Source: Gemmatimonadales bacterium (lineage in GTDB: Bacteria > Gemmatimonadota > Gemmatimonadetes > Gemmatimonadales > GWC2-71-9). Taken from it: DNA of 45,376 nucleotides. Under the pieces are notes generated by a model, which had not been told where the DNA came from, ran no database searches, and saw only the letters and a program-made list of their open reading frames with translations. Numbering within the stretch: position 1 is the stretch's first letter; each line of letters begins with the position of its first letter. Below, piece by piece: positions 23,801 through 44,016 of this stretch. The position numbers were made by a program, and so were the translations under genes. The stretch covers positions 1-45,376 of the forward strand of contig JANMSC010000095.1 in assembly GCA_031388885.1 (NCBI GenBank). The letters run 5' to 3'.

Positions 23801-23826
23801 CCGGATGTGTTCCACTCAACCTCGTC

Positions 23827-24351
23827 ATGGAGATCGACGTGAGCGAACTCATGGTGTTGCGCGTGATTCACGTGGTGGGCGGGGCGTTCTGGGTCGGGGC
23901 CGTGGTATTCAATAGCGCGTTCCTCCTGCCGGCACTCGCCGCATCGGGGCCAGCTGCGGGGCAGGTCATGGCGAACCTTCGGCGTCGGCACATGCTCACG
24001 GTCCTGCCCGTGGTGGCCATCCTGACGCTGCTCTCCGGCCTGCGCCTCATCCAGATCGCGTCAGGCGGAATTACCACGTCGTACTTCGAGACCGGGAGCG
24101 GCCGGACCTATGCGACCGGCGGCGCGTTGGCAATTCTCGGATTCCTCATCGGAATGTCAGTTGTGCGCCCCGCGCTGAATCGGGTGGCGGCGCTTGGCGC
24201 GACGATGGCGACGGCGCAGGATGATGCGACACGTGCTGCGATCGGCGCCGAGATCGGTGCGGTGCGCCGCCGCGGTGCGTCGGCAAATGCCATTGTCGCG
24301 GTGCTGCTGGTCGCCGCGACCGTGGCAATGGCCATCGGTCGATACATGTAG
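23827..24351 (+). CDS. Hypothetical ~4-TM membrane protein
   Basis: Hydrophobic helices are present (VIHVVGGAFWVGAVVFNSAFLL, LTVLPVVAILTLLSGL, ALAILGFLIGMSVV, AIVAVLLVAATVAMAI). I recognised no family. An alternative start is the ATG at 23851. Confidence 0.6.
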   Translation: MEIDVSELMVLRVIHVVGGAFWVGAVVFNSAFLLPALAASGPAAGQVMANLRRRHMLTVLPVVAILTLLSGLRLIQIASGGITTSYFETGSGRTYATGGALAILGFLIGMSVVRPALNRVAALGATMATAQDDATRAAIGAEIGAVRRRGASANAIVAVLLVAATVAMAIGRYM

Positions 24352-24359
24352 CCCTGATG

Positions 24360-24619
24360 TGGCAACGCGCCCGACGCGACGGAGCATCGCGCGACGCCCA
24401 GAAGTCGTTGTAGTCGCCGCGTTCGCGATCGCGACCACGCGCCATCACACCGTCGAGCCAGTCGATCACGGCCTTCGGCGCGAGCACTTCCGGATCGCCG
24501 CCCACGGTGGGGCATCCTTGCGAGAGCCCCGTGCCGGGCGCTTCGGAGTGCACCACGGCGGCAACGACCAGGACCGAGCGCGCGGTCGAGCGGGTTGCAG
24601 CGAGAGCATGACGGATCAC
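24360..24619 (-). pseudogene. Possible remnant of an S15/CocE-NonD (X-Pro dipeptidyl-peptidase-like) hydrolase gene
   Basis: The minus-strand translation VVHSEAPGTGLSQGCPTVGGDPEVLAPKAVIDWLDG resembles the GTG.S.G ... E..D....IDWL segment of that family. Only ~60 codons look protein-like before the frame decays into Arg/Pro-rich sequence. Confidence 0.3.
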
Positions 24620-25908
24620 GCAATCCCATTGTGAATGGCGGCGAGCATGATGTCGGTAAACGTGTCGACGTCGTCGAGGGTGGTGTTGATGTTTGGCGTC
24701 ACGCGGATCCCCGAGAACTCGGCATGATTGATTGGCGTCGTGACGATGCGATGCTTGCTCAGCAGCCAGCCATACAACTTGTCGGGCGCGATTCCCTCGA
24801 CCGATACCATCGCGATCGCGCCGGCATTCTTGCTGTCGAGCGGCGTCGGTATCCGCACTCGGTCGCTCTCATGCAGCAACCGCTTCGCCCAGCGATCGCG
24901 CAGGTAGCGCAGTCGGGCGATCTTCCGCTCGGCGCCGATCCCGCGGTGGAACGCCAACGCGACCGAGATGGCGTTGTGATTGGCGGCGGGATGGGTGCCG
25001 ATCTCTTCAAACTTGCGGGGGTTGTCATCCATCGAGGGCGCAGCGGCCATCAACGGCCAGATTCCCTTGATCTTCGCCTTGCGGACGTAGAGAAAGCCGG
25101 TGCCGATTGGAGCGAGGAGCCACTTGTGGAGCGACGTCCCGTAGTAGTCGCAATCGAGGTCGGCGTGAGTGAACGGGAAGTGTGCGTAGGCATGGGCGCC
25201 ATCGACGAACACCTCGATGTTGCGCTCCCGCGCCATCTGGACGATTTCCTTGACCGGCAGTATCTGCCCGGTCAGGTTGGTGATGTGGGTGATCTCGATC
25301 ACCCGCGTCTTCGGCGTGATCGCGTGCCGGAACACGTCGACCAGGTAGTCCGTGGACGGCACCGGCACCTTGAACGACACCTGTTTCAGCACGATGCCCT
25401 CGCGCCGCACCCGTTGCTCCCAGCTGGTCAGCATCCGTCCGTAGTTCTGGTTGGTCACCAGCACTTCGTCGCCGCGCTGCAAGTCGAGCCCGAAGATCAG
25501 GGTCTCGAGCGCCTCCGACGCGCCGCGCGTGATGGCCAACTCTTCAGGATCGCAACCGAAGTCGCGTGCGAGATCGCGACGGACGCTCTCGAGTCGTGGC
25601 TCGAGCACCTGCCACATATGGTACACCGGGAGCTCGTTGCTGAATCGCAGGTCGCGGATCATCGCCTCAAGCACATGCGTCGGAGTCGGGCAGACGCCGC
25701 CGTGGTTGAGGTTGATCATCGTGTGGTCGGTGTCGAACGCGCGCTGAATTTCGCCCCAGTACGCCTCATCGTCCGCCGCGGCGGCAGGGTCGACCGTGCT
25801 CAGGCGGTCGGTAGCGCGCACCACGTGACGCATCGCCGATTCGCGGAACATCGGGAGCGCGGCGCTGGCGCCGGCGAGAGAATGGAGAAAATGCCGGCGT
25901 GACGACAT
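24616..25908 (-). CDS. Class V aminotransferase-fold PLP enzyme (isopenicillin-N-epimerase/cysteine-desulfurase-like) with twin-arginine signal
   Basis: Tat-type N-terminus MSSRRHFLHSLAGASAALPMF. PLP-lysine context SLHKWLLAPIGTGFLYV. Class V fold motifs (ITHITNLTGQILPV, VDGAHA). Confidence 0.85.
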   Translation of the reverse strand: MSSRRHFLHSLAGASAALPMFRESAMRHVVRATDRLSTVDPAAAADDEAYWGEIQRAFDTDHTMINLNHGGVCPTPTHVLEAMIRDLRFSNELPVYHMWQVLEPRLESVRRDLARDFGCDPEELAITRGASEALETLIFGLDLQRGDEVLVTNQNYGRMLTSWEQRVRREGIVLKQVSFKVPVPSTDYLVDVFRHAITPKTRVIEITHITNLTGQILPVKEIVQMARERNIEVFVDGAHAYAHFPFTHADLDCDYYGTSLHKWLLAPIGTGFLYVRKAKIKGIWPLMAAAPSMDDNPRKFEEIGTHPAANHNAISVALAFHRGIGAERKIARLRYLRDRWAKRLLHESDRVRIPTPLDSKNAGAIAMVSVEGIAPDKLYGWLLSKHRIVTTPINHAEFSGIRVTPNINTTLDDVDTFTDIMLAAIHNGIA

Positions 25909-26084
25909 TGGTGCTCCGCGGAGGTGTAGGGACGACAGGTGGCACGGCAGGGAAGTCGGGACGATACCCGGCTGGAGTGCGAGGCGCCACTCGGCAGCGT
26001 AGTATCCTTATCGATCCGTCGCTGCCGCGCCGCCGACGGCGTCGTACCGGGCCGCTGACGGGCTCCCGAACCGTTGAGGACGCC

Positions 26085-26660
26085 ATGCTCCGATGGTTGA
26101 GTCGCGTGCTGGGCGTCGCGCCGCCGGCGATGCAACGTCGTGTGGTGCGATGGTGGCCTGCGACGGTCGAGCATACCCGCGACGATATCGATACCGATGG
26201 GTTGTTCGTCCGACTCGACCGGGTGCTGGGGCTGATCGAGCACCATGTGCCGGAGCGGTTCGACCAGTTGCGTGCGCACGTGGCGGGGTTTCGCGTCGTT
26301 CGGTTTCCGTGCCGTGGGGCATTCCAGTCGGACACGCGCGAGTGTCTCGTCGAACTCACCTTCCTGGCGGACGCGGGCCGCCTGGACGAAGAGATCGCCG
26401 CAACGATCGTGCACGAGGGTGAGCACGCGCGTCATCGCGCGATGGCAGTGCCTGCCATTGCGCTGGCCGACGAGGAGCGCGCCTGTCGCGAAGCCGAGCT
26501 GGAGTTTGGGCTTCGGGCACCGGGCGGCGCCAAGGTCGTCGAGCGTGCCCGTGCGAGTCTGGCCCTTGCCGACGATGAGGTCGCGCCGACCGTGGACTGG
26601 TCGGTCGCGGTCGAGCGCATGCGGGCAGAGGATCGCCGGGCCAAGTTCGATGTTCGATGA
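26085..26660 (+). CDS. Hypothetical protein with HExxH-like motif
   Basis: The ATG at 26085 is preceded by GAGGA. The ORF-track start at 25899 adds an Arg-rich extension that overlaps the divergent gene. The motif is ATIVHEGEHARH. No family was recognised. Confidence 0.5.
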   Translation: MLRWLSRVLGVAPPAMQRRVVRWWPATVEHTRDDIDTDGLFVRLDRVLGLIEHHVPERFDQLRAHVAGFRVVRFPCRGAFQSDTRECLVELTFLADAGRLDEEIAATIVHEGEHARHRAMAVPAIALADEERACREAELEFGLRAPGGAKVVERARASLALADDEVAPTVDWSVAVERMRAEDRRAKFDVR

Positions 26661-26687
26661 TCGCTCATCGATGAGCGATCATCGAAC
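26652..26687. repeat. Perfect 36-nt palindrome built from (T)TCGATG/GATGATC heptamers
   Basis: GTTCGATGATCGCTCATCGATGAGCGATCATCGAAC equals its own reverse complement (checked base by base). It is centred on ATCGAT and overlaps the TGA stop at 26658-26660. Confidence 0.95.
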
Positions 26688-26708
26688 CACCACTCTCAGG
26701 AGCAACCC

Positions 26709-27110
26709 GTGACCGATCGCGCCACCGGCACATTTGACGTCAAGCTCCTCCCGCTTGCCGCGCATCACACCGGCGACAACGCGCCTGTCGGCCGGATGTC
26801 GATCGACAAGGTCTTCCACGGTGATCTCGCCGGTACCAGCGAGGGGGAGATGCTGGCCGCAATGACGGCTGTCAAGAACTCGGCTGCGTATGTCGCGCTC
26901 GAGCGCGTCACCGGCACGCTCGGCGGGAAGAAGGGGTCGTTCGTGTTGCAGCACACCGGCATCATGAATCGTGGTGTGGGCACGCTGACGGTCACTGTGG
27001 TTCCTGATTCCGGTACAGACGAGCTGGCGGGGCTGACGGGCACGCTGGAGATCATTGTCGAGGGGAAGCAGCATTCGTACGTGTTCGAGTACACGATGAT
27101 CGAGAAGTGA
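26709..27110 (+). CDS. DUF3224 domain protein
   Basis: The GTG start is preceded by AGGAG. ATGTFDVKL...DKVFHGDLAGTSEGEMLAA...YVALERVTGTLGGKKGSFVLQHTG...VVPDSGTDELAGLTG...FEYT matches my memory of DUF3224 proteins. Confidence 0.75.
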   Translation: MTDRATGTFDVKLLPLAAHHTGDNAPVGRMSIDKVFHGDLAGTSEGEMLAAMTAVKNSAAYVALERVTGTLGGKKGSFVLQHTGIMNRGVGTLTVTVVPDSGTDELAGLTGTLEIIVEGKQHSYVFEYTMIEK

Positions 27111-27135
27111 GAAGCGAGAAGCGATAGGCGAGCGG
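27101..27135 (+). repeat. Degenerate heptamer array of the (C/G)GAGAAG family
   Basis: CGAGAAG TGAGAAG CGAGAAG CGATAGG CGAGCGG. The stop codon of the DUF3224 gene (27108-27110) lies inside unit 2. Confidence 0.6.
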
Positions 27136-27184
27136 CATTGGCACGAGGCATGGGGCGAGGGCTAGACGGCAACCGCTCCTCGCT

Positions 27185-27805
27185 TCACGCCTGCTGCCGC
27201 ACCCCCCAGTACCGCCGCAGCGTCCCAAGAATCACGGGCAATCCACGGAACACGCAGAAGAACAGCGCCACCCATGCCGTCATCTGGAAGATCCGCAGCA
27301 TCGAGACTGATTCACCGCCCATGTCGGTGATGGTCGCCTTGTCACCCAACGCCAGCGTCAGCGCGAGACCGCAAAACGTCACGACCTTGGTGACGGCGTA
27401 ACCGGTGCGCATGAACGGCGACCCAACCAGGAACCGACCGAGCGGCGAACGATGCTGTTCGAATGGAGCGACGCCCTGGGCTACGCCAATACTGCGGAAT
27501 GCATCGGTGAGCGTGGTGCGGGCGATCACGATCAACGCAATCGCCACCGGAATCATGCGAAGATCAGCGAAACAGACCCACAGCACGAGTTCGTAGGTTC
27601 GGTCGGCCGCGATATCGAGCACGCTGCCGAAGAGGGAGGTCTCGCCGCGTCGGCGGGCGACCACGCCGTCAACGGTGTCGAGCATCAGGCCGATGAAAAG
27701 CAGCACAACGCCGACGAGGCGGAGGGTGTGGGATCCGTGGTACAGGATCAGGATGATGCCGAGGAGCAGCGGAAAACGTGACAGCGTAATCCAGTTGGCC
27801 AGCAC
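27185..27805 (-). CDS. CDP-alcohol phosphatidyltransferase family protein
   Basis: Signature D-x2-D-G-x2-A-R-x8-G-x3-D-x3-D is present as DTVDGVVARRRGETSLFGSVLDIAADR. The protein is polytopic and hydrophobic. Confidence 0.85.
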   Translation of the reverse strand: MLANWITLSRFPLLLGIILILYHGSHTLRLVGVVLLFIGLMLDTVDGVVARRRGETSLFGSVLDIAADRTYELVLWVCFADLRMIPVAIALIVIARTTLTDAFRSIGVAQGVAPFEQHRSPLGRFLVGSPFMRTGYAVTKVVTFCGLALTLALGDKATITDMGGESVSMLRIFQMTAWVALFFCVFRGLPVILGTLRRYWGVRQQA

Positions 27806-27888
27806 ACCTGCCTCCGGGCTGAACGGGAACCATCATGTTCGTTGGGGGTCTATATTGCACTCCGCCAGTCACTACTCACGGAGCGCCT

Positions 27889-28362
27889 GTGTCTTCCGCC
27901 AATGTCCGAATCGTCATGATCGCCGCGCTCGTCGCCGCAGCCTGTACACCGGAGGATACGTCGGTGCCTGAACCCACGTCCATCGAAGCGGCGAGTTTCG
28001 CGTCGTCGCTCAACGTCAACCTCCCCACGTCCACCAAGCTGCCATCGGGGATGTACATCAGGGACATTGCAGTCGGGGGGGGCGCCGCAGTGGCATCCGG
28101 CCAGACCCTCTCCATGCGCTACACCGGCTGGCTCAGCAACGGGACGCAGTTCGACGCCACCGGCAACGGCGCGCCGTTCACGTTCCGCCTCGGCGCCGGG
28201 CAGGTAATCGGTGGCTGGGACCAGGGTGTCGCCGGGATGAAGGTCGGCGGAACACGTCAGCTCATCATCCCACCCGCGCTTGGCTACGGCAGCCGTGGCA
28301 CCGGGCCCATTCCGGGGAACGCCATCCTGGTGTTCACGGTGGAAGTCGTGACGGCGCAGTGA
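27889..28362 (+). CDS. FKBP-type peptidyl-prolyl cis-trans isomerase, probable lipoprotein
   Basis: YTGWLSNGTQFD...FTFRLGAGQVIGGWDQGVAGMKVGGTRQLIIPPALGYG. Lipobox-like LVAAAC. I prefer the GTG at 27889, which follows GGAG, over the ORF-track start at 27835. Confidence 0.88.
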   Translation: MSSANVRIVMIAALVAAACTPEDTSVPEPTSIEAASFASSLNVNLPTSTKLPSGMYIRDIAVGGGAAVASGQTLSMRYTGWLSNGTQFDATGNGAPFTFRLGAGQVIGGWDQGVAGMKVGGTRQLIIPPALGYGSRGTGPIPGNAILVFTVEVVTAQ

Positions 28363-28811
28363 GTGGGCCGACCACGGTACGACCGTTCCAGACCCGCGCA
28401 AACCACGCCCGCTACGTTCCGCTGTGGCACTTTTTCGCGACACCGCTGGTCATCGTGCTGTTCGCCTGGGCCATGCTGCGACTGGCGCAGGCACCGACGG
28501 CCCGAGCCGTCGCCGACGCACTGTTCATGGTCGCGTTCGTCATTCTCTTCGCCTATGCCCGACACTTCGCACTGCGGGTACAGAATCGGGTCATCCGGCT
28601 GGAGGAACAGCTTCGATTCCAGCGGCTGCTCCCGGCCGACCTGATTGCGCGAATGAGCGAGTTCAGGACCGCCCACTACATCGCGCTCCGCTTCGCCTCC
28701 GACGCAGAGCTACCCGACCTCGCTCGCACGGTACTTGACCAGCAGATCACCGACAAGAAGCAGATCAAGTCGATGATCCGCGAGTGGCGCGCAGACTACC
28801 TGCGAGCGTGA
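28359..28811 (+). CDS. Two-TM membrane protein (DUF6526-like pattern)
   Basis: GTGA overlap with the FKBP stop. NHARYVPLWHFF, then two TM helices, then ALRVQNRVIRLEEQLRF. The family assignment is from memory and tentative. Confidence 0.6.
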   Translation: MSGPTTVRPFQTRANHARYVPLWHFFATPLVIVLFAWAMLRLAQAPTARAVADALFMVAFVILFAYARHFALRVQNRVIRLEEQLRFQRLLPADLIARMSEFRTAHYIALRFASDAELPDLARTVLDQQITDKKQIKSMIREWRADYLRA

Positions 28812-28921
28812 CCGGCTACTTGCCGACCCGCGTCTTCCTGACCCAGCCCTCGGCAGTGTTGGTGTAGCCACCTTCCCGCCCGACGGTCATCGGAGGAATC
28901 TGTGGTGCGGTCCGGTTCCAC

Positions 28922-28964
28922 GGAAGGGAGGGCGTGCGGCGCACGGCACGCCGGGCGTCCCTTC
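28922..28964 (+). other. Imperfect GC-rich stem-loop in an intergenic region (function unknown)
   Basis: GAAGGGA (28923-29) pairs with TCCCTTC (28958-64). The inner stem GGCGTGC (28931-37) pairs with GCACGCC (28946-52). There is no U-tract, so it is not a canonical intrinsic terminator. Confidence 0.35.
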
Positions 28965-28993
28965 TATGAGTTCACCCGCACATGGAGGGATGC

Positions 28994-29581
28994 ATGACCC
29001 GAAAGATGTGGCTCGGCGCTGCGTTGACCGCTGGCCTGGTCGGTTGCGCCGCACTCCAGCAGTTCAGCGCGCTCCGCCAGGTGGTGTTCACACTCGGTCG
29101 GATCGGCACCGGACGGCTGGCCGGGGTCTCCCTGACGCGCATCGCCTCGTATTCCACGCTGTCGGCCACGGAGGTGGCCCGGATCACGATCGCGGTCGCA
29201 CGCAAGGACTTGCCGCTCGACTTCGTGCTCGATGTCCATGCCGACAATCCGATCGAGAACAAGGTGGCGGCGACCATGGTGCGGCTCGCCTGGTCGCTCT
29301 ACCTCGACGACAAGCAAACGATCTCAGGCGTCGTGGATACGTCCATCACGATTCCGTCGGGCGGTCAGGTTGTGATCCCGATGCGGATGCGCCTCAACCT
29401 GATGGAGTTCTTCGACGGACCCGCTGAAGACCTCGTCAACATCGCCGCCGCGGTGGCTGGGCTGAACACCGACCCCACCCGCGTGTCGCTCCGCGCCGTC
29501 CCCACCATCAACACCCCGATCGGGCCGATCGCCTATCCGACGCCGATCACGATTGTGACCCGGACAGTGGGCGGGCCGTAG
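28994..29581 (+). CDS. Lipoprotein, LEA type-2 (LEA14-like) fold candidate
   Basis: Signal peptide plus lipobox MTRKMWLGAALTAGLVGC. The ATG at 28994 follows GGAGGGA. The beta-rich region DFVLDVHADNPIENKVAATMVRLAWSLYLDDKQTISG resembles LEA_2 proteins (tentative). Confidence 0.6.
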   Translation: MTRKMWLGAALTAGLVGCAALQQFSALRQVVFTLGRIGTGRLAGVSLTRIASYSTLSATEVARITIAVARKDLPLDFVLDVHADNPIENKVAATMVRLAWSLYLDDKQTISGVVDTSITIPSGGQVVIPMRMRLNLMEFFDGPAEDLVNIAAAVAGLNTDPTRVSLRAVPTINTPIGPIAYPTPITIVTRTVGGP

Positions 29582-29583
29582 GG

Positions 29584-29639
29584 CGAGAAGGGAGAAGGGA
29601 GAGGGGAGAAGGGAGAAGGGAGAAGGGAGAAGCGAGAGG
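29584..29639 (+). repeat. 56-nt heptamer tandem array, 8 units (CGAGAAG, GGAGAAG, GGAGAGG, 4 x GGAGAAG, CGAGAGG)
   Basis: Read directly from the sequence. It starts 3 nt after the TAG stop (29579-29581), is preceded by GTAGGG, and is nearly pure purine on the + strand. Confidence 0.95.
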
Positions 29640-29713
29640 CGCGGAAGGACGGCTGGTGGCGGGTCGAGGCTGGGCGATGTTGTCCGGTCCATCCGCCGCC
29701 TTATCTTGCGTCC

Positions 29714-31087
29714 GTGACGGCCCTGTTCGACCCCACCGACCCACGCCCAATTCACTTCGTCGGCATCAGCGGCGCAGGCATGAGCGCGCTCGCGCTCGCC
29801 GCGCTACGTCGCGGCGTCGTCGTCACCGGCTGCGATCACGACACGAGCGCGTTCGCGGACCTGCAAGCGGCCGGCGCGCTGGTGCATTCCGGGCACGACG
29901 CGGCGCACGTCACCGGCGCTCGCGCCGTGATCGTGACTGCCGCGGTTCGCTCCGACCAGATCGAGCTCGTCACGGCCCGGATGACCGGCATTCCGGTTGT
30001 TCCCCGGAAGGAGGCGCTCGCGGCCCTCGTCAACGGCACCACGCTGGTCGCGATTGCCGGCACGCATGGCAAGACGACCACCACGGTGATGACCACCGAG
30101 GCGTTGCGCGCCGCCGGACTGCATCCGTCGGGCCTCGCCGGTGGGCGCGTCGCCTCCTGGAGCGGCAATGCGTCGCTCGACGGCAACGACCTCTTCGTGG
30201 TCGAAGCGGATGAGTATGACCAGGCGTTTCTCACGCTTCACCCGACCATCGCCGTCGTCAACAATGTTGAGGCCGACCATCTGGAGTGCTATGGGTCGGT
30301 CGAGGCGATGGAGCTCGCCTACGTGTCCTTTGCATCGCGAGCGACTCGGACCCTCGTGGGTACGGCTGACCCCGGGAGCGAGCGGGTTGCCGCCGCGCTC
30401 GGCGCCGCCGCGTGGCGCTTCGGAATCGAACGCGGTGACCTGCTCGTCACGCCGCGCGAGCTGTCGGCGGCCGGGTCAGTCGCGGATGTTCAGCTTCCCG
30501 ACGGTCGTTCCGTCGTGCTGCGCCTCAGCGTGCCGGGAGTGCACAACCTGCGCAACGCCACCGCGGCGCTCGGCGTGGCGTTCACGCTCGGCGCAGACCT
30601 CATGAAGGCACTCGATGCGCTGCGCGCGTTCAGCGGCGTCGGTCGTCGATTTGACCGCCTCGGCGAAGTCGCCGGCGTGGCGATCGTCGATGACTATGCC
30701 CATCATCCGACCGAGCTCGTCGCCACCATCGCGGCAGCACGGCAGGCCTTTCCCGATCGGCGCCTGGTGGTCGTATTCCAGCCGCACCTCTACTCGCGCA
30801 CCCGCGAACACGGGCCAGCGATGGGTGTGGCGCTCGCCGCGGCCGACTTGATCATCGTCACCGACGTGTACGGCGCACGCGAACAGCCCGAGCCGGGCGT
30901 GACCGGCAAGATCGTGGCGGATGCTGCCGTCGCGCTCGGCGCGTTCGTCGTGTACGAGCCCAATCGCGAGCAACTCAGCAGCGAGGTCGCCGAGCTGGTG
31001 CGCGCGGGAGACGTCCTCGTCACGCTCGGCGCTGGCGATGTCACCCGAGTCGGCCGCGATGTGGCCGATATCCTTGTGGCACGATGA
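29714..31087 (+). CDS. murC: UDP-N-acetylmuramate--L-alanine ligase
   Basis: IHFVGISGAGMSALA, IAGTHGKTTTTVM, VVEADEYD, DDYAHHPTE. GTG start. Confidence 0.93.
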   Translation: MTALFDPTDPRPIHFVGISGAGMSALALAALRRGVVVTGCDHDTSAFADLQAAGALVHSGHDAAHVTGARAVIVTAAVRSDQIELVTARMTGIPVVPRKEALAALVNGTTLVAIAGTHGKTTTTVMTTEALRAAGLHPSGLAGGRVASWSGNASLDGNDLFVVEADEYDQAFLTLHPTIAVVNNVEADHLECYGSVEAMELAYVSFASRATRTLVGTADPGSERVAAALGAAAWRFGIERGDLLVTPRELSAAGSVADVQLPDGRSVVLRLSVPGVHNLRNATAALGVAFTLGADLMKALDALRAFSGVGRRFDRLGEVAGVAIVDDYAHHPTELVATIAAARQAFPDRRLVVVFQPHLYSRTREHGPAMGVALAAADLIIVTDVYGAREQPEPGVTGKIVADAAVALGAFVVYEPNREQLSSEVAELVRAGDVLVTLGAGDVTRVGRDVADILVAR

Positions 31088-35536: not shown

Positions 35537-37306
35537 GTGCTGATTCTCGCCGCACTCGTCGTTTCGGTTGCATTCGCCGCGTGGACGTACCGCCTTCGGC
35601 TCACTGAAGGCCCGGTGCGTCTCGCGGCGATGTGCCGTGCGGTTGGCGTGGCCGCACTCCTCGTGTTGCTGCTTGACCCAGGGCTCGTGGCGCGGATCAG
35701 CGCACCGCGCGCCGTGGTGCTGCTCGACAATTCCGTGTCGATGCACGGCGCAGGAGGCCGACATGCCGCCGCACTGGCCGCAGCCGCGGCACTTGGGGAC
35801 ACGACGTCGTTCGGTGTACTGGCACCGGGCGAACCCGGTGGACACACCGCAGTTGCCCCGGCGCTGAACGGTGCCGTTGCGGGCGGGCGGCCAGTGGTGA
35901 TCGTGACGGACGGCGAGGTGTCCGATATGGCCGCAGTGCCGGCAGACGTGCTGGCCCAGACGGCAGTGCGACTCTTCGCGCGTCCTGCAGGCAACGACGT
36001 CGCGATCGTCGAGGTGCGCGGATCGCAGCGATTGGCCGCCGGCGATTCGCTTGTGCTGGACGTCGAAGCATTGGCGGTCGGTCAGGCGCCGGACACAGCG
36101 TCGGTCGAAGTCCGTGACGGCGAACGCGTCGTGTTGCGCGGTACGCTTCGGTTCGGCGACGGACCCCGCGCCCGTGCGCGTGTTCGGCTCGCGGGCGTGG
36201 TGCCGGACGGCGTCACCGGAACGCGTTGGCTCACGGTGACGCGGACCGGCGCACCAGACGCCGAGCCGGCTGATGATGCGCGACTCTGGCGGATCGTTGT
36301 CACTCCGACGCCGGGTGTGGTGGTGCTCGCCGCGTCGCCCGATTGGGATGCGCGCTTCCTGTACAACACGCTTCGCGATGTGGTCGAAACGCCAATACGG
36401 GGTTACGTGCAGCTCGAACCAGGCAGCTGGCGCCGCATGGACGATTTGCGCCGAGTGCCGGTGGCGGAGGTGCTCGCCGCGGCACGCGGCGCGGACTTGC
36501 TCGCGGTGCGCGGCGACTCGACGCCGTGGCGCGCCATGGGCCGAACGAGACTCCTGTGGGTTCCGAGTGACGCGGCGGGCGATTGGTATCTGGGCGCTGC
36601 AGGGGCTTCGCCGATCGCCGGTGCGTTCGCCGGCGTTGATGTCGATTCGTTGCCGCCCGCCACTGCGGCCAGACCACTCGACCCGATCGGCGCCAACGGC
36701 TGGACTGGGGCCGTCGCGAAGCTTTCGCGGCGCGGTGCCGACGTGCCGGTGATCGGGGGACGGGATGGCCCGAGCGGGCGAGTCGTGCTGATCGGCGTCG
36801 ATGGGCTGTACCGTTGGGGTTTTCGCGGTGGCGCGAGTGAACAGGTGTGGCGGACCATGGTTGCGGATGCGGCGTCGTGGCTGCTCGCCACCCCCGATGC
36901 GGCCGGTGCTCGGGCGCGTGTGCTGCACCCCGTGACGCAACGGGGCCGCGCGGTGCGCTTCCAGTGGACGGGGGTCGGGGCCGCCCTGCCGGTTGCTATC
37001 GCGATCGACGGTGGCCGGGCCCAACGTGCCGATACGCTGCGCTTCGACGGCGCCGGCGAAGCGACACTGGCGCTTCCGGTCGGTCGCTACCAATACCGAC
37101 TCGATCGCGGTGGCGCGGGTGCATTCGCCGTCGAACCTTACGCCGACGAGCTCGTGCCGTCGCCAGTGACGCTCACCGAGCGCGTGGCCGAAGCACGCCC
37201 GGCGCCGGCGCGGCGATCGCTGCGCGAACTGATCTGGTTGTTCGGAGTGGTGGTCGGGGGGTTTGGTGGGGAGTGGATGGTGCGACGGAAGTTGGGGATG
37301 AGGTGA
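35537..37306 (+). CDS. Membrane protein with VWA-like (MIDAS DxSxS) domain, BatA/BatB-like architecture
   Basis: Two N-terminal TM helices. VVLLDNSVSM (DxSxS) and VVIVTDGE. C-terminal TM plus basic tail LIWLFGVVVGGFGGEWMVRRKLG. GTG start. Confidence 0.65.
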   Translation: MLILAALVVSVAFAAWTYRLRLTEGPVRLAAMCRAVGVAALLVLLLDPGLVARISAPRAVVLLDNSVSMHGAGGRHAAALAAAAALGDTTSFGVLAPGEPGGHTAVAPALNGAVAGGRPVVIVTDGEVSDMAAVPADVLAQTAVRLFARPAGNDVAIVEVRGSQRLAAGDSLVLDVEALAVGQAPDTASVEVRDGERVVLRGTLRFGDGPRARARVRLAGVVPDGVTGTRWLTVTRTGAPDAEPADDARLWRIVVTPTPGVVVLAASPDWDARFLYNTLRDVVETPIRGYVQLEPGSWRRMDDLRRVPVAEVLAAARGADLLAVRGDSTPWRAMGRTRLLWVPSDAAGDWYLGAAGASPIAGAFAGVDVDSLPPATAARPLDPIGANGWTGAVAKLSRRGADVPVIGGRDGPSGRVVLIGVDGLYRWGFRGGASEQVWRTMVADAASWLLATPDAAGARARVLHPVTQRGRAVRFQWTGVGAALPVAIAIDGGRAQRADTLRFDGAGEATLALPVGRYQYRLDRGGAGAFAVEPYADELVPSPVTLTERVAEARPAPARRSLRELIWLFGVVVGGFGGEWMVRRKLGMR

Positions 37307-37413
37307 TCGACGACCGATGATCGATGATCGATGATCGATCGTCGATGCTCGTTCGTCAACCAGCGATGATCGGTGTACGTTCAAGTCGCCATCGATCATC
37401 CATCATCCGTCAT
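37302..37413. repeat. GATGATC heptamer array followed by inverted (GATCATC-type) units
   Basis: GGTGATC GACGACC GATGATC x3 GATCGTC GATGCTC GTTCGTC ... GATGATC ... CGATCAT CCATCAT CCGTCAT. The upstream TGA stop (37304-06) lies inside unit 1. There are seven GATC sites within ~100 nt. Confidence 0.9.
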
Positions 37414-37451
37414 CGGAGGGTGTATGAACCGGCACCCACATCTGGAATCCC

Positions 37452-40825: not shown

Positions 40826-42883
40826 GTGCCCCAGCTCCGACTCGACACGCCCGTCCAGTTCCTGAAAGGTATCGGCGAGAAGCGCGCCGAGGCCTTCGCG
40901 CGCCTCGGGGTGCACACCACGCAGGACCTGCTGCTCCACCTGCCGCACCGGTATATCGACGCCTCGAGTGTCACGCCCCTGGCTGAGGCCCGGGTCGGGG
41001 ACGATGTCGCGTGTGTCGGCACGGTCACGAGCAAGGGCGTGTTGCCCACGCGGAAGGGGCTCCGAGTCTTTCACGCGGTGCTGCGCGATGCCAGTGGCGT
41101 GCTGGAGTGCGCGTGGCCGGGGCAGGCGTTCCTCGACCGCACCATCCAGGTCGGTCAACTCCTGCTCGTCGCGGGTCCGGTCCGGTTCTATCACGGCCGC
41201 CAGATGGCGCCGCGCGAGATGGTGATTCTCGGCGACGACGGCGAATCTCCCGGACGCGTCCTGCCGGTGTACCCCGCTACCGAGGGGCTCTCGCACAAGC
41301 AGATCCGGACGATCATCGACGCACACCTCGATTCGCTCATTCCACTCGTTCCAGACATCCTGCCGGATGAACTGAAGGCGCGATTCGCGCTGCCGTCGCT
41401 CGCCGAGGCGGTCCGCCTGGTCCATCGGCCGACGTCACTGACCGAAGCGGAGCAGGGGCGGCGGCGGCTGGCCATTGACGAGCTGCTCGACTTGCAACTC
41501 ATGCTGGCGCGGGCGCGTCACATCGCGCGACACGGGCAACGCGGCACCCCGTTCGTGTTGCATCGCACGCTGACCACCCAGCTACGCGAGTCGTTGCCGT
41601 GGACCCTCACACCCGACCAGAAGCAATCGGTGCGTGAGATTTTCGATGACATGACGAAGGCCGACCGGATGCACCGGCTCGTGATGGGTGATGTCGGCAC
41701 CGGCAAGACCGTCGTGGCGTTGTTCGCGATGCTGCTCGCGGTCGAAAACGGCTACCAGGCGGCGCTGATGGCACCCACCGAGTTGCTGGCGGAGCAGCAC
41801 TATCGCACGCTCGCGACGCTGCTGGCGCCGCTGGGGATCCACCCCGAGATGCTGGTTGGGCGACTCGGCGCCAGCGACAAGAAGGCGGCGCGGGCACGAC
41901 TCGCGTCGGGTGAGACCCAACTCGTGGTAGGGACTCACGCGCTGGTGCAGGAGGGCGTTGCGTTCAGCAAGCTCGGCCTGGTGGTGATCGACGAGCAGCA
42001 CCGTTTTGGGGTCGAGCAGCGTTCGGCGCTGATGCTGAAGGGCGAAGCGCCTGATGTGCTGCTGCTCACGGCGACGCCGATTCCGCGGTCGCTGGCGCTC
42101 ACGCGGTACGGCGACCTCGACATGAGTGTCCTCAAGGTGCGACCACCGGGGCGGGGTACGATTCGCACGGCGGTGCGCACGCCGACGCAGCGCGCCCGGG
42201 TGTTCGACTTCATGCACCAGACCGCGCAGGGTGGCGGACAGGTCTATATCGTGTTGCCGGTGATCGAGGAATCGGAGCGCGCCGATTTGAGGGCAGCGCA
42301 GACGATGGCGACGTCACTTGCGGCGCAGTGGCCCGACGTAGTGGTCGGCCTGGTGCACGGGCGGATCAAGCCACCGGAGCGCGAGCAGGTGATGCGCGAC
42401 TTTCGCGATGGCACGGTCGGTGTGCTGGTGGCGACCACGGTGATCGAGGTCGGCATTGACGTGCCGAACGCCACGGTGATGGTCATAGAGCATCCTGAGC
42501 GTTTTGGTCTTGCGCAGTTGCACCAGTTGCGCGGTCGGGTGGGACGCGGCACCAAGGAGTCGCACTGCATCCTGCTCACGTCGTCAGATGGCGTGCCTGA
42601 TCGGCTGCGCGCGTTCGCTGCGACCGATGACGGCTTCCAGATTGCGGAGCTTGATCTTGAGGAGCGCAGTCACGGTGATCTGCTCGGCGCTCGGCAATCG
42701 GGCGGCGTCGATTTCCGGATTGCGCGGTTTCCCGATGACACTGACTTGCTGTCGGAGGCGCGAGCGCTTGCGCGGGCGATTCTCGATACTGATCCTGGGC
42801 TCGAGCGGCGAGAGAACAAGCCGCTCAGGGAACGGGCCGTGGCGCGGTATCCGAAGGCGGATGTGCTTTTTCGTGTAGGGTGA
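40826..42883 (+). CDS. recG: ATP-dependent DNA helicase RecG
   Basis: Wedge/OB N-terminal region (LKGIGEKRAEAFARLGVHTTQDLLLHLPHRY). Helicase motifs GDVGTGKTVVA, DEQHRFG and TATPIPRS, plus QLHQLRGRVGRG. Confidence 0.93.
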   Translation: MPQLRLDTPVQFLKGIGEKRAEAFARLGVHTTQDLLLHLPHRYIDASSVTPLAEARVGDDVACVGTVTSKGVLPTRKGLRVFHAVLRDASGVLECAWPGQAFLDRTIQVGQLLLVAGPVRFYHGRQMAPREMVILGDDGESPGRVLPVYPATEGLSHKQIRTIIDAHLDSLIPLVPDILPDELKARFALPSLAEAVRLVHRPTSLTEAEQGRRRLAIDELLDLQLMLARARHIARHGQRGTPFVLHRTLTTQLRESLPWTLTPDQKQSVREIFDDMTKADRMHRLVMGDVGTGKTVVALFAMLLAVENGYQAALMAPTELLAEQHYRTLATLLAPLGIHPEMLVGRLGASDKKAARARLASGETQLVVGTHALVQEGVAFSKLGLVVIDEQHRFGVEQRSALMLKGEAPDVLLLTATPIPRSLALTRYGDLDMSVLKVRPPGRGTIRTAVRTPTQRARVFDFMHQTAQGGGQVYIVLPVIEESERADLRAAQTMATSLAAQWPDVVVGLVHGRIKPPEREQVMRDFRDGTVGVLVATTVIEVGIDVPNATVMVIEHPERFGLAQLHQLRGRVGRGTKESHCILLTSSDGVPDRLRAFAATDDGFQIAELDLEERSHGDLLGARQSGGVDFRIARFPDDTDLLSEARALARAILDTDPGLERRENKPLRERAVARYPKADVLFRVG

Positions 42884-42887
42884 GGAG

Positions 42888-42943
42888 CGAGAAGGGAGAA
42901 GGGAGAAGGGAGAAGGGAGAAGGGAGAAGGGAGAAGCGAGAGC
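42888..42943 (+). repeat. 56-nt heptamer tandem array, 8 units (CGAGAAG, 6 x GGAGAAG, CGAGAGC)
   Basis: 54/56 identical to the array at 29584-29639. It is preceded by GTAGGG-TGAGGAG, where TGA (42881-83) is the recG stop. Confidence 0.95.
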
Positions 42944-43077
42944 CGAGTGGGGCGAAGGGTCGACGCCGGTAGCGGTGCGGCGCACCGTCTCAGGAGAACG
43001 CGCTCTCGGGTCCGTGTCCTGCCCGTCCTCCCGATCGTCTCCTTCCTACGATCCTTCCTTTTTCAAGGAGACGCAGC

Positions 43078-43665
43078 ATGCGACACCGTCTGGTGCCTGC
43101 CGTCCTCGCCATCGCTGTGGCACAACTGGCTTGTTCTGACCCGATCAGCTCCGAAACAGGGCGAGCCGAAGCCCTGATCCAGGACACCCCGATTGGTGCC
43201 GCAACGGTCTCCGGCTCGCTCGCCGGCAACATTTTTGCTTCGCTCGCTGCAGACGGCACGACGTGGGTCAACTTGGGCTCTCCCAATGGCATCACGGTTT
43301 CTCTCCAGCTCGTGGGAAGCGCCTCGACCGTTCACGGGGAGGCAGACACGGACGCCGGGACCTACACGCGAGTGCGTCTGACGTTCAATGGTGTTGTCGC
43401 ACGGCTCACGGCCGGCTCCGTCGTGGGCGGGGTAACCCTTACCAGCGATGCCAACATTACTCTCGGTGGTGCTGACCAGCGGGTCGAGCTCACCGTGACG
43501 GTGCCGAGTTTTGCAGTCGAAACCAACCCGACCGTCCAGCGCACCATCGTCTTCGAACTCCGGTCCCAACTCTGGCTGACGGCCGCTGTCCTTCAGGCGG
43601 GGACCGTGCAGGACGCTGCCCTTCAGGCGGCGGTCCAAGCGACGACCCGGATCGATCCCCGGTAG
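43078..43665 (+). CDS. Hypothetical lipoprotein
   Basis: AAGGAGA lies upstream of the ATG. Signal plus lipobox MRHRLVPAVLAIAVAQLAC. The remainder is beta-rich with no confident family assignment. Confidence 0.6.
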   Translation: MRHRLVPAVLAIAVAQLACSDPISSETGRAEALIQDTPIGAATVSGSLAGNIFASLAADGTTWVNLGSPNGITVSLQLVGSASTVHGEADTDAGTYTRVRLTFNGVVARLTAGSVVGGVTLTSDANITLGGADQRVELTVTVPSFAVETNPTVQRTIVFELRSQLWLTAAVLQAGTVQDAALQAAVQATTRIDPR

Positions 43666-44016
43666 CCCGCCGTGAGCGGCTGATCTTCGTTCGGACGTGC
43701 ACTCCATTGATATGGCCTTCGCGTTCGTGCAGGTGCCCCGACAGATAGTGATAGAAGTACACCGCCCAGATACCGTCAGCATTCTCGTCGGGTCCCCAGG
43801 TGAGGTGCCGGCGTCGCGCCTCGAGCAAGAGCGCACCGATGTCCCCGGTCCATACCCGGTCTCCGTCGGCGCCCGCAGCCGGTCGGCAGGCCGTAAGGCG
43901 GCGGTCGGAATCCACCTGCCTGCGAACAGCTGCGAGCGCACATGGTGCGACCCGAAAGCGGGCGGTATCGTTCCTGCTTCGGTCGGTCGCTCCGTCATTT
44001 CCACCTGGAGTCGGGC

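What the first reader, a model, noticed from the sequence alone, without database searches (positions are those of the whole stretch)
29579..29643. 56-nt GGAGAAG heptamer array starting at a stop codon (copy 1), just upstream of murC
Eight tandem heptamers (CGAGAAG GGAGAAG GGAGAGG GGAGAAG x4 CGAGAGG) begin 3 nt after the TAG of the upstream lipoprotein gene. They are preceded by GTAGGG. The tract is nearly pure purine on the coding strand. Each unit contains a Shine-Dalgarno-like GGAG, so the transcript would carry about 8 consecutive anti-SD binding sites. A 7-nt period rules out a coding repeat. The array is 54/56 identical to one 13 kb away (42888-42943), with the same terminal variant units. 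This implies a templated or mobile element or strong selection, not simple slippage. It recalls the heptameric STRR repeats of cyanobacteria, but I know of no description in this kind of genome.
Basis: seen in the sequence. Interest (0 to 1): 0.65.

Follow-up and report, generated by a model that had tools for sequence, protein, structure and literature searches.

The report
Purine heptamer repeats after stop codons
The 56-base run of GGAGAAG units right after a gene's stop codon is real, and it is a fast-changing slippage repeat of a kind already described in other bacteria, new for this phylum (Gemmatimonadales) and with no proven function.

Summary
Array 1 (29584-29639) starts 2 nt after the TAG of a lipoprotein gene. 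Array 2 (42888-43943 region, core 42888-42943) starts at the TGA of recG and is 54/56 identical. A third, degenerate copy (27101-27135) overlaps the TGA of a DUF3224 gene.

The window is a complete 45-kb contig of a Gemmatimonadales bacterium. The arrays are not assembly artefacts, because independent assemblies of relatives carry an array at the same site. They are not part of a larger mobile element, because the flanks share nothing significant.

They behave like slippage repeats. At the array-1 site, relatives have 4-5 GGAGAAG units or CGAGAAG units. A strain 98.4% identical in recG lacks array 2.

Period 7 is the commonest tandem-repeat period in Gemmatimonadota DNA sampled without regard to repeats. 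Across many phyla, (GGAGAAG)n starts at a stop codon with the purine strand as sense strand (31/94 against 6/94; random 4%).

The same positional bias, G-quadruplex potential and inverted pairs were published for G-rich heptamers of Xanthomonas and Nostoc. I therefore file this as a new member of a known kind. Function is unproven. Array 2 has a degenerate pyrimidine partner plus T5 and looks like a hairpin or terminator. Array 1 has no partner.

The parts
28994..29581 (+). Upstream gene, a 195-aa predicted lipoprotein (lipobox LVGC, no Pfam family). Its TAG stop is at 29579-29581.
   Evidence: (P0001, 195 aa). One metatranscriptome contig covers 29282-29501.
29584..29639 (+). Array 1: 8 heptamers, CGAGAAG GGAGAAG GGAGAGG (GGAGAAG)x4 CGAGAGG. 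It lies on the sense strand 2 nt after the stop codon and has six G3+ runs.
   Evidence: The orthologous site is occupied in L198, L199, L200 and L207.
29640..29713 (+). Spacer between array 1 and murC. It has a predicted GC-rich hairpin at about 29655-29700 (not better than shuffles). TTATCTTGC at 29701-29709 is conserved in L206 and L207 just before the GTG start.
   Evidence: (z -0.27). No sigma-70-like promoter or terminator was found by the scan. No significant pyrimidine partner for the array.
29714..31087 (+). murC (Mur ligase), followed by ftsQ, ftsA and ftsZ.
40826..42883 (+). recG. Its TGA stop is at 42881-42883.
42881..42943 (+). Array 2: a degenerate first unit TGAGGAG (which contains the recG stop), then CGAGAAG (GGAGAAG)x6 CGAGAGC. 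The core 42888-42943 is 54/56 identical to array 1.
   Evidence: Absent from L210, a strain with 98.4% nt identity in recG.
43017..43064 (+). The only 45-nt stretch with at least 82% pyrimidine on the + strand of the whole window, ending in T5 (43059-43063). It is a degenerate complement of array 2, lies just before the AAGGAG SD and ATG 43078 of the next gene, and is conserved in L210.
   Evidence: duplex -53.3 kcal/mol, 0 of 300 shuffles and 1 of 300 random genomic segments as good. (MFE pairs the array with this tract).
27101..27135 (+). Array 3: a degenerate CGAGAAG/TGAGAAG array. The TGA at 27108-27110 within its second unit is the stop of the DUF3224 gene (26709-27110). The next gene is convergent (27185-27805, minus strand).
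   Evidence: No G-quadruplex potential.
37304..37414 (+). A second heptamer family in the same contig. (TGATCGA)n at 37304-37351 begins with the TGA stop of conserved gene 35537-37306. A complementary arm lies at 37390-37414, before ftsY.
   Evidence: The syntenic relative L208 has only a 12-nt spacer at this place.

Best explanation
The tract is a non-coding heptanucleotide simple-sequence repeat (unit NGAGAAG). It belongs to a class of purine-rich or G-rich heptamer arrays that lie at gene 3' ends, with the purine strand as the mRNA-sense strand and the first unit at, or within a few nt of, the stop codon.

**Shown**
- It is real and recurs three times in 45 kb.
- It has no shared flanks.
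- It is evolutionarily labile in copy number, in unit sequence and in presence or absence.
- Related genomes are full of period-7 arrays with other units in the same kind of slot.

**Inferred**
- The arrays arise and are homogenised by replication slippage or unequal exchange within the array. The interior becomes uniform and the edge units stay variant. That gives the shared C-(G)n-C pattern without transposition.
- They persist because the stretch between a stop codon and the control region of the next gene is the one place where a 7-nt-period insertion does no harm.
- The orientation bias reflects what the transcript tolerates or uses. The sense RNA is C-free and unpaired. Any antisense RNA would be about 57% C and nearly G-free, which is the composition Rho binds (a rut-like tract).

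**Likely RNA-level consequences**
- Arrays 1 and 2 can fold a three-layer G-quadruplex and can pair with the 16S 3' tail.
- Where a pyrimidine copy lies downstream, the array is the 5' arm of a long hairpin.
- Array 2 has such a degenerate partner followed by T5. It most likely works as a terminator or 3'-end-stabilising hairpin for recG.
- Array 1 has no partner and is most likely a tolerated, possibly weakly functional, single-stranded spacer in the lipoprotein-murC transcript.
For: **Reality and non-randomness:**

**Independent assemblies** carry an array at the array-1 site:
- L198 and L207: TAA-CGCGAGG-(GGAGAAG)3-4.
- L199 and L200: TAG-GGGG-(CGAGAAG)n.
- Nucleotide identity of the upstream gene to these relatives is 80-81%.

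**Array 2** is absent in L210. recG there is 98.4% identical and the upstream 171 nt are 100% identical. Only the seed TGAGGAG-CGAGAAG-CGA is present.

**No shared flanks:**

**Period 7 dominates.** In 411 kb of MurC-selected Gemmatimonadota loci, period 7 is the commonest tandem-repeat period: 50 arrays against 25 of period 3. The five period-7 arrays include the two best-scoring tandem repeats of the window.

**Free-slot argument.** The window has about 130 nt of heptamer arrays exactly between a stop codon and the ftsY SD, where the syntenic relative L208 has a 12-nt spacer.

**Orientation and adjacency**
- In Gemmatimonadota loci the upstream gene is on the purine strand in about 25 of 30 arrays, and most arrays start within 40 nt of the stop.
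- Across all phyla, 31/94 arrays start -12..+10 nt from the end of an ORF of at least 100 codons on the purine strand, against 6/94 on the other strand (p = 4e-5). The random expectation is 4%.
- The 5' end of the purine strand abuts an ORF boundary far more often than the 3' end.

**Hairpin form.** 35/107 arrays have a significantly complementary tract within 150 nt downstream, against 12/107 upstream. In Gemmatimonadota the figures are 10/24 against 0/24. L041 is a textbook stem plus T-run. For array 2.

**G-quadruplex and anti-SD energies:**

**Published precedent.** Rehm et al. 2015 (PMC4692102) report the same positional bias, inverted pairs, length and sequence variation at conserved sites, and G-quadruplex formation. 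Heptanucleotides are the most abundant long SSR class in most prokaryotic genomes and slippage has been proposed as their origin (Mrazek et al. 2007, as summarised in PMC4679880).
Against: - Tolerance alone does not explain why the purine strand is the sense strand.
- It also does not explain why an array has stayed at the array-1 site across about 20% nucleotide divergence while array 2 turns over within 1.6%.
- Two arrays 13 kb apart share the same interior unit and the same edge variants, although the seed left in L210 is CGAGAAG. This needs either biased expansion of the G unit or copying between arrays.
- At the array-2 site the difference between the window and L210 is a replacement of about 60-85 nt, not a clean gain of units.
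- No RNA data bear on termination, stability or ribosome binding. The one metatranscriptome run gave a single contig inside the upstream gene.
- The whole-region folds around the arrays are not better than shuffles.
- My gene calls for related loci come from a crude GC3/ORF heuristic.
Confidence: 0.6

Rival explanations
1. A selected gene-end punctuation element. The G-rich sense tract is ribosome-free just after the stop codon. It forms an RNA or DNA G-quadruplex or an R-loop, or it keeps Rho off the sense transcript while giving any antisense transcript a C-rich, G-poor loading site. Either way it sets transcript boundaries or insulates neighbouring genes.
For: - The strand and stop-codon polarity holds across phyla.
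- Arrays 1 and 2 have six G3 runs and a predicted gain of about 10-12 kcal/mol as a G-quadruplex.
- The antisense strand is 57% C and nearly G-free, which matches the known Rho preference (established knowledge).
- Rho is encoded in Gemmatimonadales (L201).
- About half of the Gemmatimonadota arrays precede a convergent gene.
- In Xanthomonas, transcripts start or stop more often at G-quadruplex-capable repeats (PMC4692102).
- Cyanobacteria commonly lack Rho (from memory) and show the stop-codon bias less often: 1/7 against 53/87, p = 0.04.
- The array-1 site stays occupied across about 20% divergence.
Against: - The G-quadruplex is not conserved. CGAGAAG arrays (L199/L200), array 3 and TGAGAAG units have no G3 run.
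- Array 1 stands in front of the essential murC gene with no detectable promoter behind it, so it cannot be a strong terminator.
- Array 2 is dispensable in a near-identical strain.
- The cyanobacterial contrast is weak and confounded by genome architecture.
- There is no RNA evidence here.
Confidence: 0.2
2. An anti-Shine-Dalgarno binding array. The transcript tethers or parks 30S subunits after termination, as a standby site, a ribosome sponge or an mRNA stabiliser in the manner of STAB-SD elements.
For: - (GGAGAAG)n gives 9 contiguous pairs (AGAAGGGAG) with a canonical ...CCUCCUUUCU-3' tail, at -13.2 kcal/mol.
- The arrays stay unpaired in the predicted folds.
- Structured regions lie between the arrays and the next start codons.
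- In relatives, (GGGAGCA)n at the murC-ftsQ junction ends as the ftsQ SD.
Against: - The next start codons are 75 and 136 nt away. Only 11/98 arrays have a start codon within 15 nt.
- Array 3 and about half of the Gemmatimonadota arrays face a convergent gene.
- The orthologous array in L199/L200 is CGAGAAG, which pairs at only -6.6 kcal/mol.
- Many post-stop heptamers in relatives have no GGAG at all.
- The same placement is seen in Bacteroidota (7/12), which rarely use SD pairing (established knowledge).
- The 16S tail of this organism is not in the window, so the pairing is assumed.
Confidence: 0.08
3. Templated spread. The arrays are copied from one another, or from a master copy, by ectopic gene conversion, template switching or a mobile or retro-element. 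That would explain the identical interior unit and the identical edge units at loci 13 kb apart.
For: - The two arrays are 54/56 identical and both have the C-(G)n-C layout.
- Array 2 is present or absent between strains 1.6% apart. The seed in L210 is CGAGAAG, yet the interior of array 2 is GGAGAAG.
- In one other MAG (L006, L046), array, conserved loop and inverted array recur at several loci like a REP element.
- Genomes that have one such array tend to have several.
Against: - There is no significant similarity outside the arrays.
- No terminal inverted repeats, target duplications or element genes are nearby.
- Units and copy numbers drift locally at the orthologous site.
- A single C-to-G change in a short proto-array, followed by expansion of the interior unit, gives the same pattern.
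Confidence: 0.1
4. An assembly artefact or a chance low-complexity run.
For: Short-read contigs of relatives break inside the arrays.
Against: - Shuffles give 0.13 hits against 15 observed.
- The same site carries arrays in Logan and NCBI assemblies from other samples, and L207 spans its array completely.
- Contig X2 enters array 1.
Confidence: 0.01

Closest known systems
G-rich heptameric SSRs of Xanthomonas (GGGAATC) and Nostoc (GGGGA(C/T)T), Rehm et al. 2015, PLoS One (PMC4692102)
   Same: - Tandem 7-nt units with a G3 run per unit, so arrays of 4 or more units are G-quadruplex capable.
[quoted passage not shown]
- Closer to the ORF on the 5' side than to the one on the 3' side.
- Inverted pairs occur.
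- The same unit recurs at many loci of one genome.
- Length and sequence vary between close relatives at conserved sites.
- Function is unresolved.
   Different: - The unit here is GGAGAAG with C and T variants. It is pure purine and complementary to the 16S 3' tail.
- The phylum is Gemmatimonadota, with a wide scatter in other phyla.
- The window's arrays have 8 units, not the preferred 4.
- G-quadruplex formation is only predicted here.
- Overall strand bias is stronger in my sample than reported for Xanthomonas (30% against 35%).
Heptanucleotide long simple sequence repeats of prokaryotes (Mrazek, Guo and Shah 2007, as summarised in PMC4679880)
   Same: - Period 7 is the most abundant long-SSR class.
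- The repeats are mostly non-coding.
- Polymerase slippage is the proposed origin.
- Occurrence is lineage-specific.
   Different: That survey predates Gemmatimonadota genomes and, as summarised there, does not describe the stop-codon polarity.
Cyanobacterial STRR heptamers (units such as CCCCAGT, TTGGTCA and CAACAGT; recalled from memory)
   Same: Tandem 7-nt units in intergenic DNA at many loci per genome.
   Different: Different units and taxon. In my sample, cyanobacterial (GGAGAAG)n arrays are rarely adjacent to a stop codon (1/7).
TAACTGA direct repeats of marine Beggiatoaceae (MacGregor 2015, PMC4679880)
   Same: Intergenic heptamer arrays at more than 100 loci, in a fixed orientation relative to genes, for which a post-transcriptional role has been proposed.
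   Different: Those lie just upstream of start codons and replace the SD. They contain stop codons in all three frames and have little SD character. The arrays here follow stop codons.
Intrinsic terminators and REP/BIME-type intergenic palindromes
   Same: - They sit after stop codons.
- In a third of cases the array plus a downstream complement forms a long stem, sometimes followed by a T-run (L041; array 2 with T5).
   Different: - Array 1 has no second arm.
- The stems are built from tandem units with lineage-specific sequence.
- The window's copies share no conserved family sequence apart from the repeat unit.

Membership tests
G-rich/purine heptamer SSR class (Rehm et al. 2015; Mrazek et al. 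2007) | Head-to-tail copies of a 7-nt unit, at least 3-4 copies, more than expected by chance | tested here: met
   TRF gives 7.6 copies at 93-97% match. There are 15 pattern hits against 0.13 expected.
G-rich/purine heptamer SSR class (Rehm et al. 2015; Mrazek et al. 2007) | Non-coding, within 0-50 bp of (or overlapping) the stop codon of the upstream ORF, with the G-rich strand as the coding strand | tested here: met
   The offsets from the stop codon are +2, 0 (or +4 for the core) and -10 nt for the three arrays. The bias across loci is 31/94 against 6/94.
G-rich/purine heptamer SSR class (Rehm et al. 2015; Mrazek et al. 2007) | One G3 run per unit, so that 4 or more units can fold a G-quadruplex | tested here: inconclusive
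   Arrays 1 and 2 each have six G3+ runs and a predicted gain of 10-12 kcal/mol. Array 3 and the CGAGAAG orthologue have none. No physical test was possible.
G-rich/purine heptamer SSR class (Rehm et al. 2015; Mrazek et al. 2007) | The same unit recurs at many loci of one genome | tested here: inconclusive
   There are three loci in the only 45 kb available. Several MAGs contributed 2-4 loci each to a truncated scan. No whole genome was at hand.
G-rich/purine heptamer SSR class (Rehm et al. 2015; Mrazek et al. 2007) | Copy number and unit sequence vary between close relatives at a conserved site | tested here: met
   The window has 8 units, L207 has 4-5, L199/L200 have CGAGAAG units, and array 2 is absent from L210.
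Cyanobacterial STRR | STRR unit sequences in (heterocystous) cyanobacterial genomes | tested here: not met
   The unit is GGAGAAG and the organism is Gemmatimonadales. The STRR units are recalled from memory.
Mobile element (MITE/REP-like) | Conserved sequence beyond the repeat, terminal inverted repeats or target duplications shared by the copies | tested here: not met
   Flank alignments are no better than random pairs. The motif tests were not significant.
Intrinsic (Rho-independent) terminator | A GC-rich stem-loop directly followed by a U-run | tested here: inconclusive
   Array 2 pairs with 43017-43064 and T5 follows, but the loop is about 75 nt and the whole fold has z = -0.84. For array 1 the scan found none.
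Functional Shine-Dalgarno site of the next gene | A purine motif 5-10 nt upstream of a start codon | tested here: not met
   The arrays end 75 and 136 nt before the next start codons, and array 3 faces a convergent gene. Only 11/98 arrays have a start codon within 15 nt.
Rho utilisation (rut)-like tract on the antisense transcript | At least about 60 nt of C-rich, G-poor, unstructured RNA that Rho binds | not testable with these tools
   The composition fits: the complement of array 1 has 32 C, 22 T and 2 G, and it is unpaired in the fold. Binding and termination cannot be tested here.
Any Rfam RNA family | A match at the gathering score | tested here: not met
   Only two tRNAs are found in the window. 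Nothing credible lies at either array.

The most novel reading that the evidence does not exclude
Purine/G-rich heptamer arrays that abut stop codons are a selected gene-end module shared across phyla, not just tolerated slippage products. Their function would lie in RNA composition and structure rather than in sequence. They would give a C-free sense strand and a C-rich antisense strand for Rho insulation, a G-quadruplex or R-loop, or one arm of a self-renewing hairpin. In this reading the units turn over by concerted evolution while position and polarity are kept. The ftsW-murG hairpins of related Gemmatimonadota show this pattern: both arms have changed unit together in different lineages.
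Probability: 0.2. Interest if true: 0.7.

Novelty: new member of a known kind. Interest (0 to 1): 0.4.

Why it matters
Heptamer SSRs are the commonest long repeats in bacterial genomes, yet nobody knows why they cluster at stop codons or whether they do anything.

This contig, with its relatives, gives a compact natural experiment:
- The array-1 site is occupied by different units across relatives.
- Array 2 is gained or lost between strains 1.6% apart.
- Single-arm and hairpin forms occur side by side.
- One unit is a near-perfect complement of the 16S 3' tail.

If a function such as transcript-end definition, Rho insulation or ribosome tethering were shown, it would add a widespread class of 3'-UTR element to bacterial gene regulation.

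If there is no function, the strand and stop-codon polarity would point to a transcription- or translation-linked bias in slippage mutagenesis.

There is also a practical point. These arrays break short-read metagenome assemblies exactly at gene ends.

Tried and rejected
1. **Laying reads or contigs across the arrays.** Laying the flanks confirmed only that the upstream gene is present and showed one RNA contig. No RNA run covers the recG end. I therefore obtained no evidence on transcript ends or on copy-number polymorphism within a sample.

2. **Orthologous murC loci from metagenomes (80 loci, MurC 47-71% identical).** None has an NGAGARG array, even of 2 units. The array is therefore not conserved at that depth. 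The lipoprotein homologues at about 66% identity sit in other neighbourhoods.

3. **A shared 3' motif (GGCGRRGGSTMGASG) and the GTAGGG prefix.** Neither is significant. Smith-Waterman scores of all flank pairs fall within the random distribution.

4. **The array as the SD of the next gene.** Rejected on distance.

5. **A coding repeat.** Rejected. The period is 7 and the array lies after the stop codon. The minus-strand ORFs 29324-29755 and 42584-42985 that read through the arrays exist only because a pyrimidine tract contains no stop codons.

6. **Watson-Crick structure of array 1 with its surroundings.** It is no better than shuffles.

7. **Rfam.** No family matches.

8. **Promoter/terminator scan.** It found nothing at the arrays.

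9. **The genome-contig scan stopped at its row limit (117 loci).** The apparent enrichment of Gemmatimonadota (23/117) therefore cannot be turned into a rate.
Full report
**1. What is in the sequence**

Array 1 lies at 29584-29639 and has eight heptamers: CGAGAAG GGAGAAG GGAGAGG (GGAGAAG)x4 CGAGAGG. It starts 2 nt after the TAG (29579-29581) of a 195-aa predicted lipoprotein gene and ends 75 nt before the GTG of murC.

Array 2 has its core at 42888-42943: CGAGAAG (GGAGAAG)x6 CGAGAGC. This core is 54/56 identical to array 1. A degenerate unit, TGAGGAG, precedes it and contains the TGA stop of recG.

TRF scores these two as the best tandem repeats of the window. A 14-mer search with up to 2 mismatches gives 15 hits, all on the + strand, where shuffles give 0.13.

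That search also shows a third, degenerate array at 27101-27135 (CGAGAAG TGAGAAG CGAGAAG CGATAGG CGAGCGG). The second unit of this array supplies the TGA stop of a DUF3224 gene.

All three arrays therefore lie on the sense strand of the upstream gene and start between -10 and +4 nt from its stop codon.

A different heptamer family, (TGATCGA)n at 37304-37351, also begins with a stop codon. It is the stop of gene 35537-37306, which is real because it is 58% identical to the syntenic protein of a relative.

**2. Whose genome, and are the arrays real?**

The window is a whole 45,376-nt contig. Its proteins have their best named relatives in Gemmatimonadales MAGs. Near-identical DNA occurs in sediment and soil metagenomes.

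The gene map reads mraY-murD-ftsW-murG, then about 5.9 kb of unrelated genes, then murC-ftsQ-ftsA-ftsZ-M23 peptidase-unknown gene-ftsY-SSF symporter-recG.

Independent assemblies rule out an artefact:
- Logan contigs of relatives of the lipoprotein gene (89% and 86% amino-acid identity) all end about 32 nt into an array at the same place.
- An NCBI MAG contig (L207) spans its array completely.
- A DNA contig of another sample runs 22 nt into array 1.

**3. How the arrays evolve**

At the array-1 site:
- L198 and L207 read TAA-CGCGAGG-(GGAGAAG)3-GGAGAAC. That is 4-5 units against 8 in the window.
- L199 and L200 read TAG-GGGG-(CGAGAAG)n, which is a different unit.
- The upstream gene is 80-81% identical at the nucleotide level in these relatives.

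At the array-2 site, strain L210 is 98.4% identical in recG and 100% identical in the 171 nt upstream. It has only TGAGGAG-CGAGAAG-CGA, followed by a different 40-80 nt that contains a perfect palindrome. Homology returns further on, and the pyrimidine tract and T5 are conserved.

More distant relatives have no array at either site:
- recG overlaps the next gene in L211 and L212.
- The lipoprotein sits in other neighbourhoods.
- None of 80 murC loci (MurC 47-71% identical) has even two NGAGARG units.

The flanks of the three copies share nothing beyond chance.

This is the behaviour of a slippage repeat: uniform interior, variant edge units, copy-number change, unit turnover and rapid gain or loss. 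It is not the behaviour of a transposed element. What simple slippage does not obviously explain is why arrays 1 and 2 both have a GGAGAAG interior between CGAGAAG and CGAGAG edges. Biased expansion of the G unit or ectopic copying between arrays both remain open.

**4. The wider class**

They come from many phyla, and 23 are Gemmatimonadota. Several MAGs contributed 2-4 loci each.

- In the Gemmatimonadota loci the gene upstream of the array lies on the purine strand in about 25 of 30 cases. The array usually starts within 40 nt of that gene's stop codon (the gene calls are my own GC3 heuristic).
- Without gene calling and over all phyla, an ORF of at least 100 codons ends -12..+10 nt before the array on the purine strand in 31 of 94 arrays. 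On the pyrimidine strand the count is 6 of 94 (sign test p = 4e-5). Random positions give 4%.
- The purines of the stop codon often run straight into the array, as in T-AAG|GGAGAAG and TGAGAAG.
- The 5' end of the purine strand abuts an ORF boundary in 43% + 17% of arrays. The 3' end does so in 9% + 10%.
- Only 11 of 98 arrays have a start codon within 15 nt downstream.
- About a third have a significantly complementary pyrimidine tract within 150 nt downstream: 35/107 against 12/107 upstream. In Gemmatimonadota the figures are 10/24 against 0/24. L041 is a clean stem plus T-run.

In DNA chosen without regard to repeats (411 kb around murC of Gemmatimonadota relatives), period 7 is the commonest tandem-repeat period, with 50 arrays against 25 of period 3.

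- The ftsW-murG spacer there carries inverted pairs of heptamer arrays. The first arm starts -12..+8 nt from the ftsW stop codon. The unit differs by lineage (GAATGCG, GATTGCG, GAACGCG, GTGCGTG, GAGGTAA and others). Both arms stay complementary, with MFE from -52 to -108 kcal/mol.
- At the murC-ftsQ junction, (GGGAGCA)n and similar arrays run through the tail of murC and end as the ftsQ Shine-Dalgarno site.
- At ftsY, the window has about 130 nt of heptamer arrays exactly where relative L208 has a 12-nt spacer between stop codon and SD.

**5. What the arrays could do**

On the transcript, arrays 1 and 2 are C-free and remain unpaired in predicted folds.

- With G-quadruplex energies switched on, each gains about 10-12 kcal/mol as a three-layer quadruplex. 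Array 3 gains nothing.
- (GGAGAAG)n pairs with a canonical 16S tail over 9 contiguous positions (-13.2 kcal/mol). CGAGAAG pairs at only -6.6. The tail of this organism is assumed, not seen.
- The antisense strand is 57% C and almost G-free. That is the composition Rho prefers (established knowledge), and Gemmatimonadales encode Rho.
- Array 2 has a partner. 43017-43064 is the only stretch on the + strand of the window with at least 82% pyrimidine. It pairs with the array at -53.3 kcal/mol, which 0/300 shuffles and 1/300 genomic segments match. It ends in T5 just before the SD of the next gene.
- Array 1 has no significant partner. No promoter-like or terminator-like site was found in its spacer.
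- No Rfam family matches either region.

**6. Interpretation**

*Shown:* a real, labile, non-mobile heptamer SSR that sits in a strongly non-random position and orientation.

*Inferred, origin and persistence:* The arrays arise by slippage. They persist in the only slot that tolerates a 7-nt-period insertion. The ftsY comparison shows that slot directly.

*Inferred, orientation and roles:* Orientation is set by what the transcript tolerates or uses. Array 2 most likely acts as the 5' arm of a terminator or stabiliser hairpin for recG. Array 1 is most likely a tolerated single-stranded spacer.

The anti-SD idea is attractive for GGAGAAG itself, but it does not explain the placement. The same slot is used by units without GGAG. 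It is used before convergent genes. It is also used in Bacteroidota (7/12).

A selected role in transcript punctuation or Rho insulation is not excluded, and I give it about 0.2.

**7. Relation to what is known**

Heptanucleotides are the most abundant long SSRs in most prokaryotic genomes, and slippage has been proposed as the cause (Mrazek et al. 2007, as summarised in PMC4679880).

Rehm et al. 2015 (PMC4692102) describe G-rich heptamers in Xanthomonas and Nostoc with:
- the same stop-codon proximity on the coding strand, including overlap with the stop;
- the same 5' polarity;
- inverted pairs;
- variation at conserved sites;
- G-quadruplex formation in vitro;
- an unresolved function.

The TAACTGA repeats of Beggiatoaceae differ because they precede start codons.

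I found no paper on such repeats in Gemmatimonadota.

The finding is therefore a new member (new unit, new phylum) of a known kind. The added observations are the complementarity to the 16S tail, the cross-phylum polarity of one unit, and the turnover seen between near-identical strains.

**8. Limits**

- There are no usable RNA data.
- No whole genome of the lineage was available.
- The genome scan was truncated.
- Gene calls in related loci are heuristic.
- All structure and energy statements are predictions.

Noticed in passing
window 37304-37351 and 37390-37414: (TGATCGA)n begins with the TGA stop of conserved gene 35537-37306, and a complementary CATCCAT/GATCATC arm follows before ftsY. 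The syntenic relative L208 has only a 12-nt spacer between stop codon and SD, so about 130 nt of heptamer arrays were added in this lineage.
   Followed up: partly
window 26645-26685: A perfect palindrome, TTCGATGATCGCTCATCGATGAGCGATCATCGAA, of the same GATGATC family lies just upstream of the DUF3224 gene. A similar GATGATC array is at L199 104-127.
   Followed up: no
window 23800-29714: The dcw cluster is split between murG and murC by about 5.9 kb of unrelated genes: a class-V aminotransferase, DUF3224, a CDP-alcohol phosphatidyltransferase, FKBP, DUF6526 and the lipoprotein. L208 is split at the same point by other genes. Most relatives have murG and murC adjacent.
   Followed up: partly
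L127, L141, L146, L147, L151, L153, L159, L160, L162, L165, L166, L170, L171 (ftsW-murG spacer): Inverted pairs of heptamer arrays form 20-30-bp stems that start at the ftsW stop codon. The unit sequence differs between lineages while the two arms stay complementary. So position and structure are conserved while the sequence is completely replaced.
   Followed up: partly
L147, L162, L170, L171, L183 and others (murC 3' end): (GGGAGCA)n, (GGGAAGA)n and (GGGACGG)n arrays run through the C-terminal tail of murC. In several loci they end as the ftsQ Shine-Dalgarno site (GGGAGCAgtcgcATGA). This is an example of an SD-containing heptamer being amplified.
   Followed up: partly
L210 2230-2413: In a strain 98.4% identical in recG, the array-2 site holds only TGAGGAG-CGAGAAG-CGA followed by a perfect palindrome, GTGCGACACATGTGTCGCAC. 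So two alternative modules occupy the same slot after the stop codon.
   Followed up: partly
L006, L046, L051, L066 (one MAG, CBFGRM01): The unit 'array, conserved loop TGCCCTTGCAAGGAAAC, inverted array' recurs at several loci. That makes it a REP-like dispersed palindrome built from the same GGAGAAG unit.
   Followed up: no
L057, L078, L084, L088, L099 (next to the arrays): A repeat of the GTCATTCCGAGCGAAGCGAGGAATC type lies directly beside the heptamer arrays in several Gemmatimonadota MAGs.
   Followed up: no
L199 141-167: (GGGGCAT)n lies on the sense strand 6 nt after the stop codon of the CDP-alcohol phosphatidyltransferase gene. It is another G-rich heptamer array after a stop codon in a close relative, at a site where the window has none.
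   Followed up: no
window 29324-29755 (-) and 42584-42985 (-): ORFs of 143 and 133 aa read through the arrays on the pyrimidine strand. They exist only because CTTCTCC tracts contain no stop codons, and gene callers may report them wrongly.
   Followed up: no
window 11070-11143 and 12974-13047: Two tRNA genes lie on the + strand.
   Followed up: no
L198, L199, L200 (contig ends): Short-read (Logan) contigs of relatives end about 32 nt into the array. These repeats therefore fragment metagenome assemblies exactly at gene 3' ends.
   Followed up: yes
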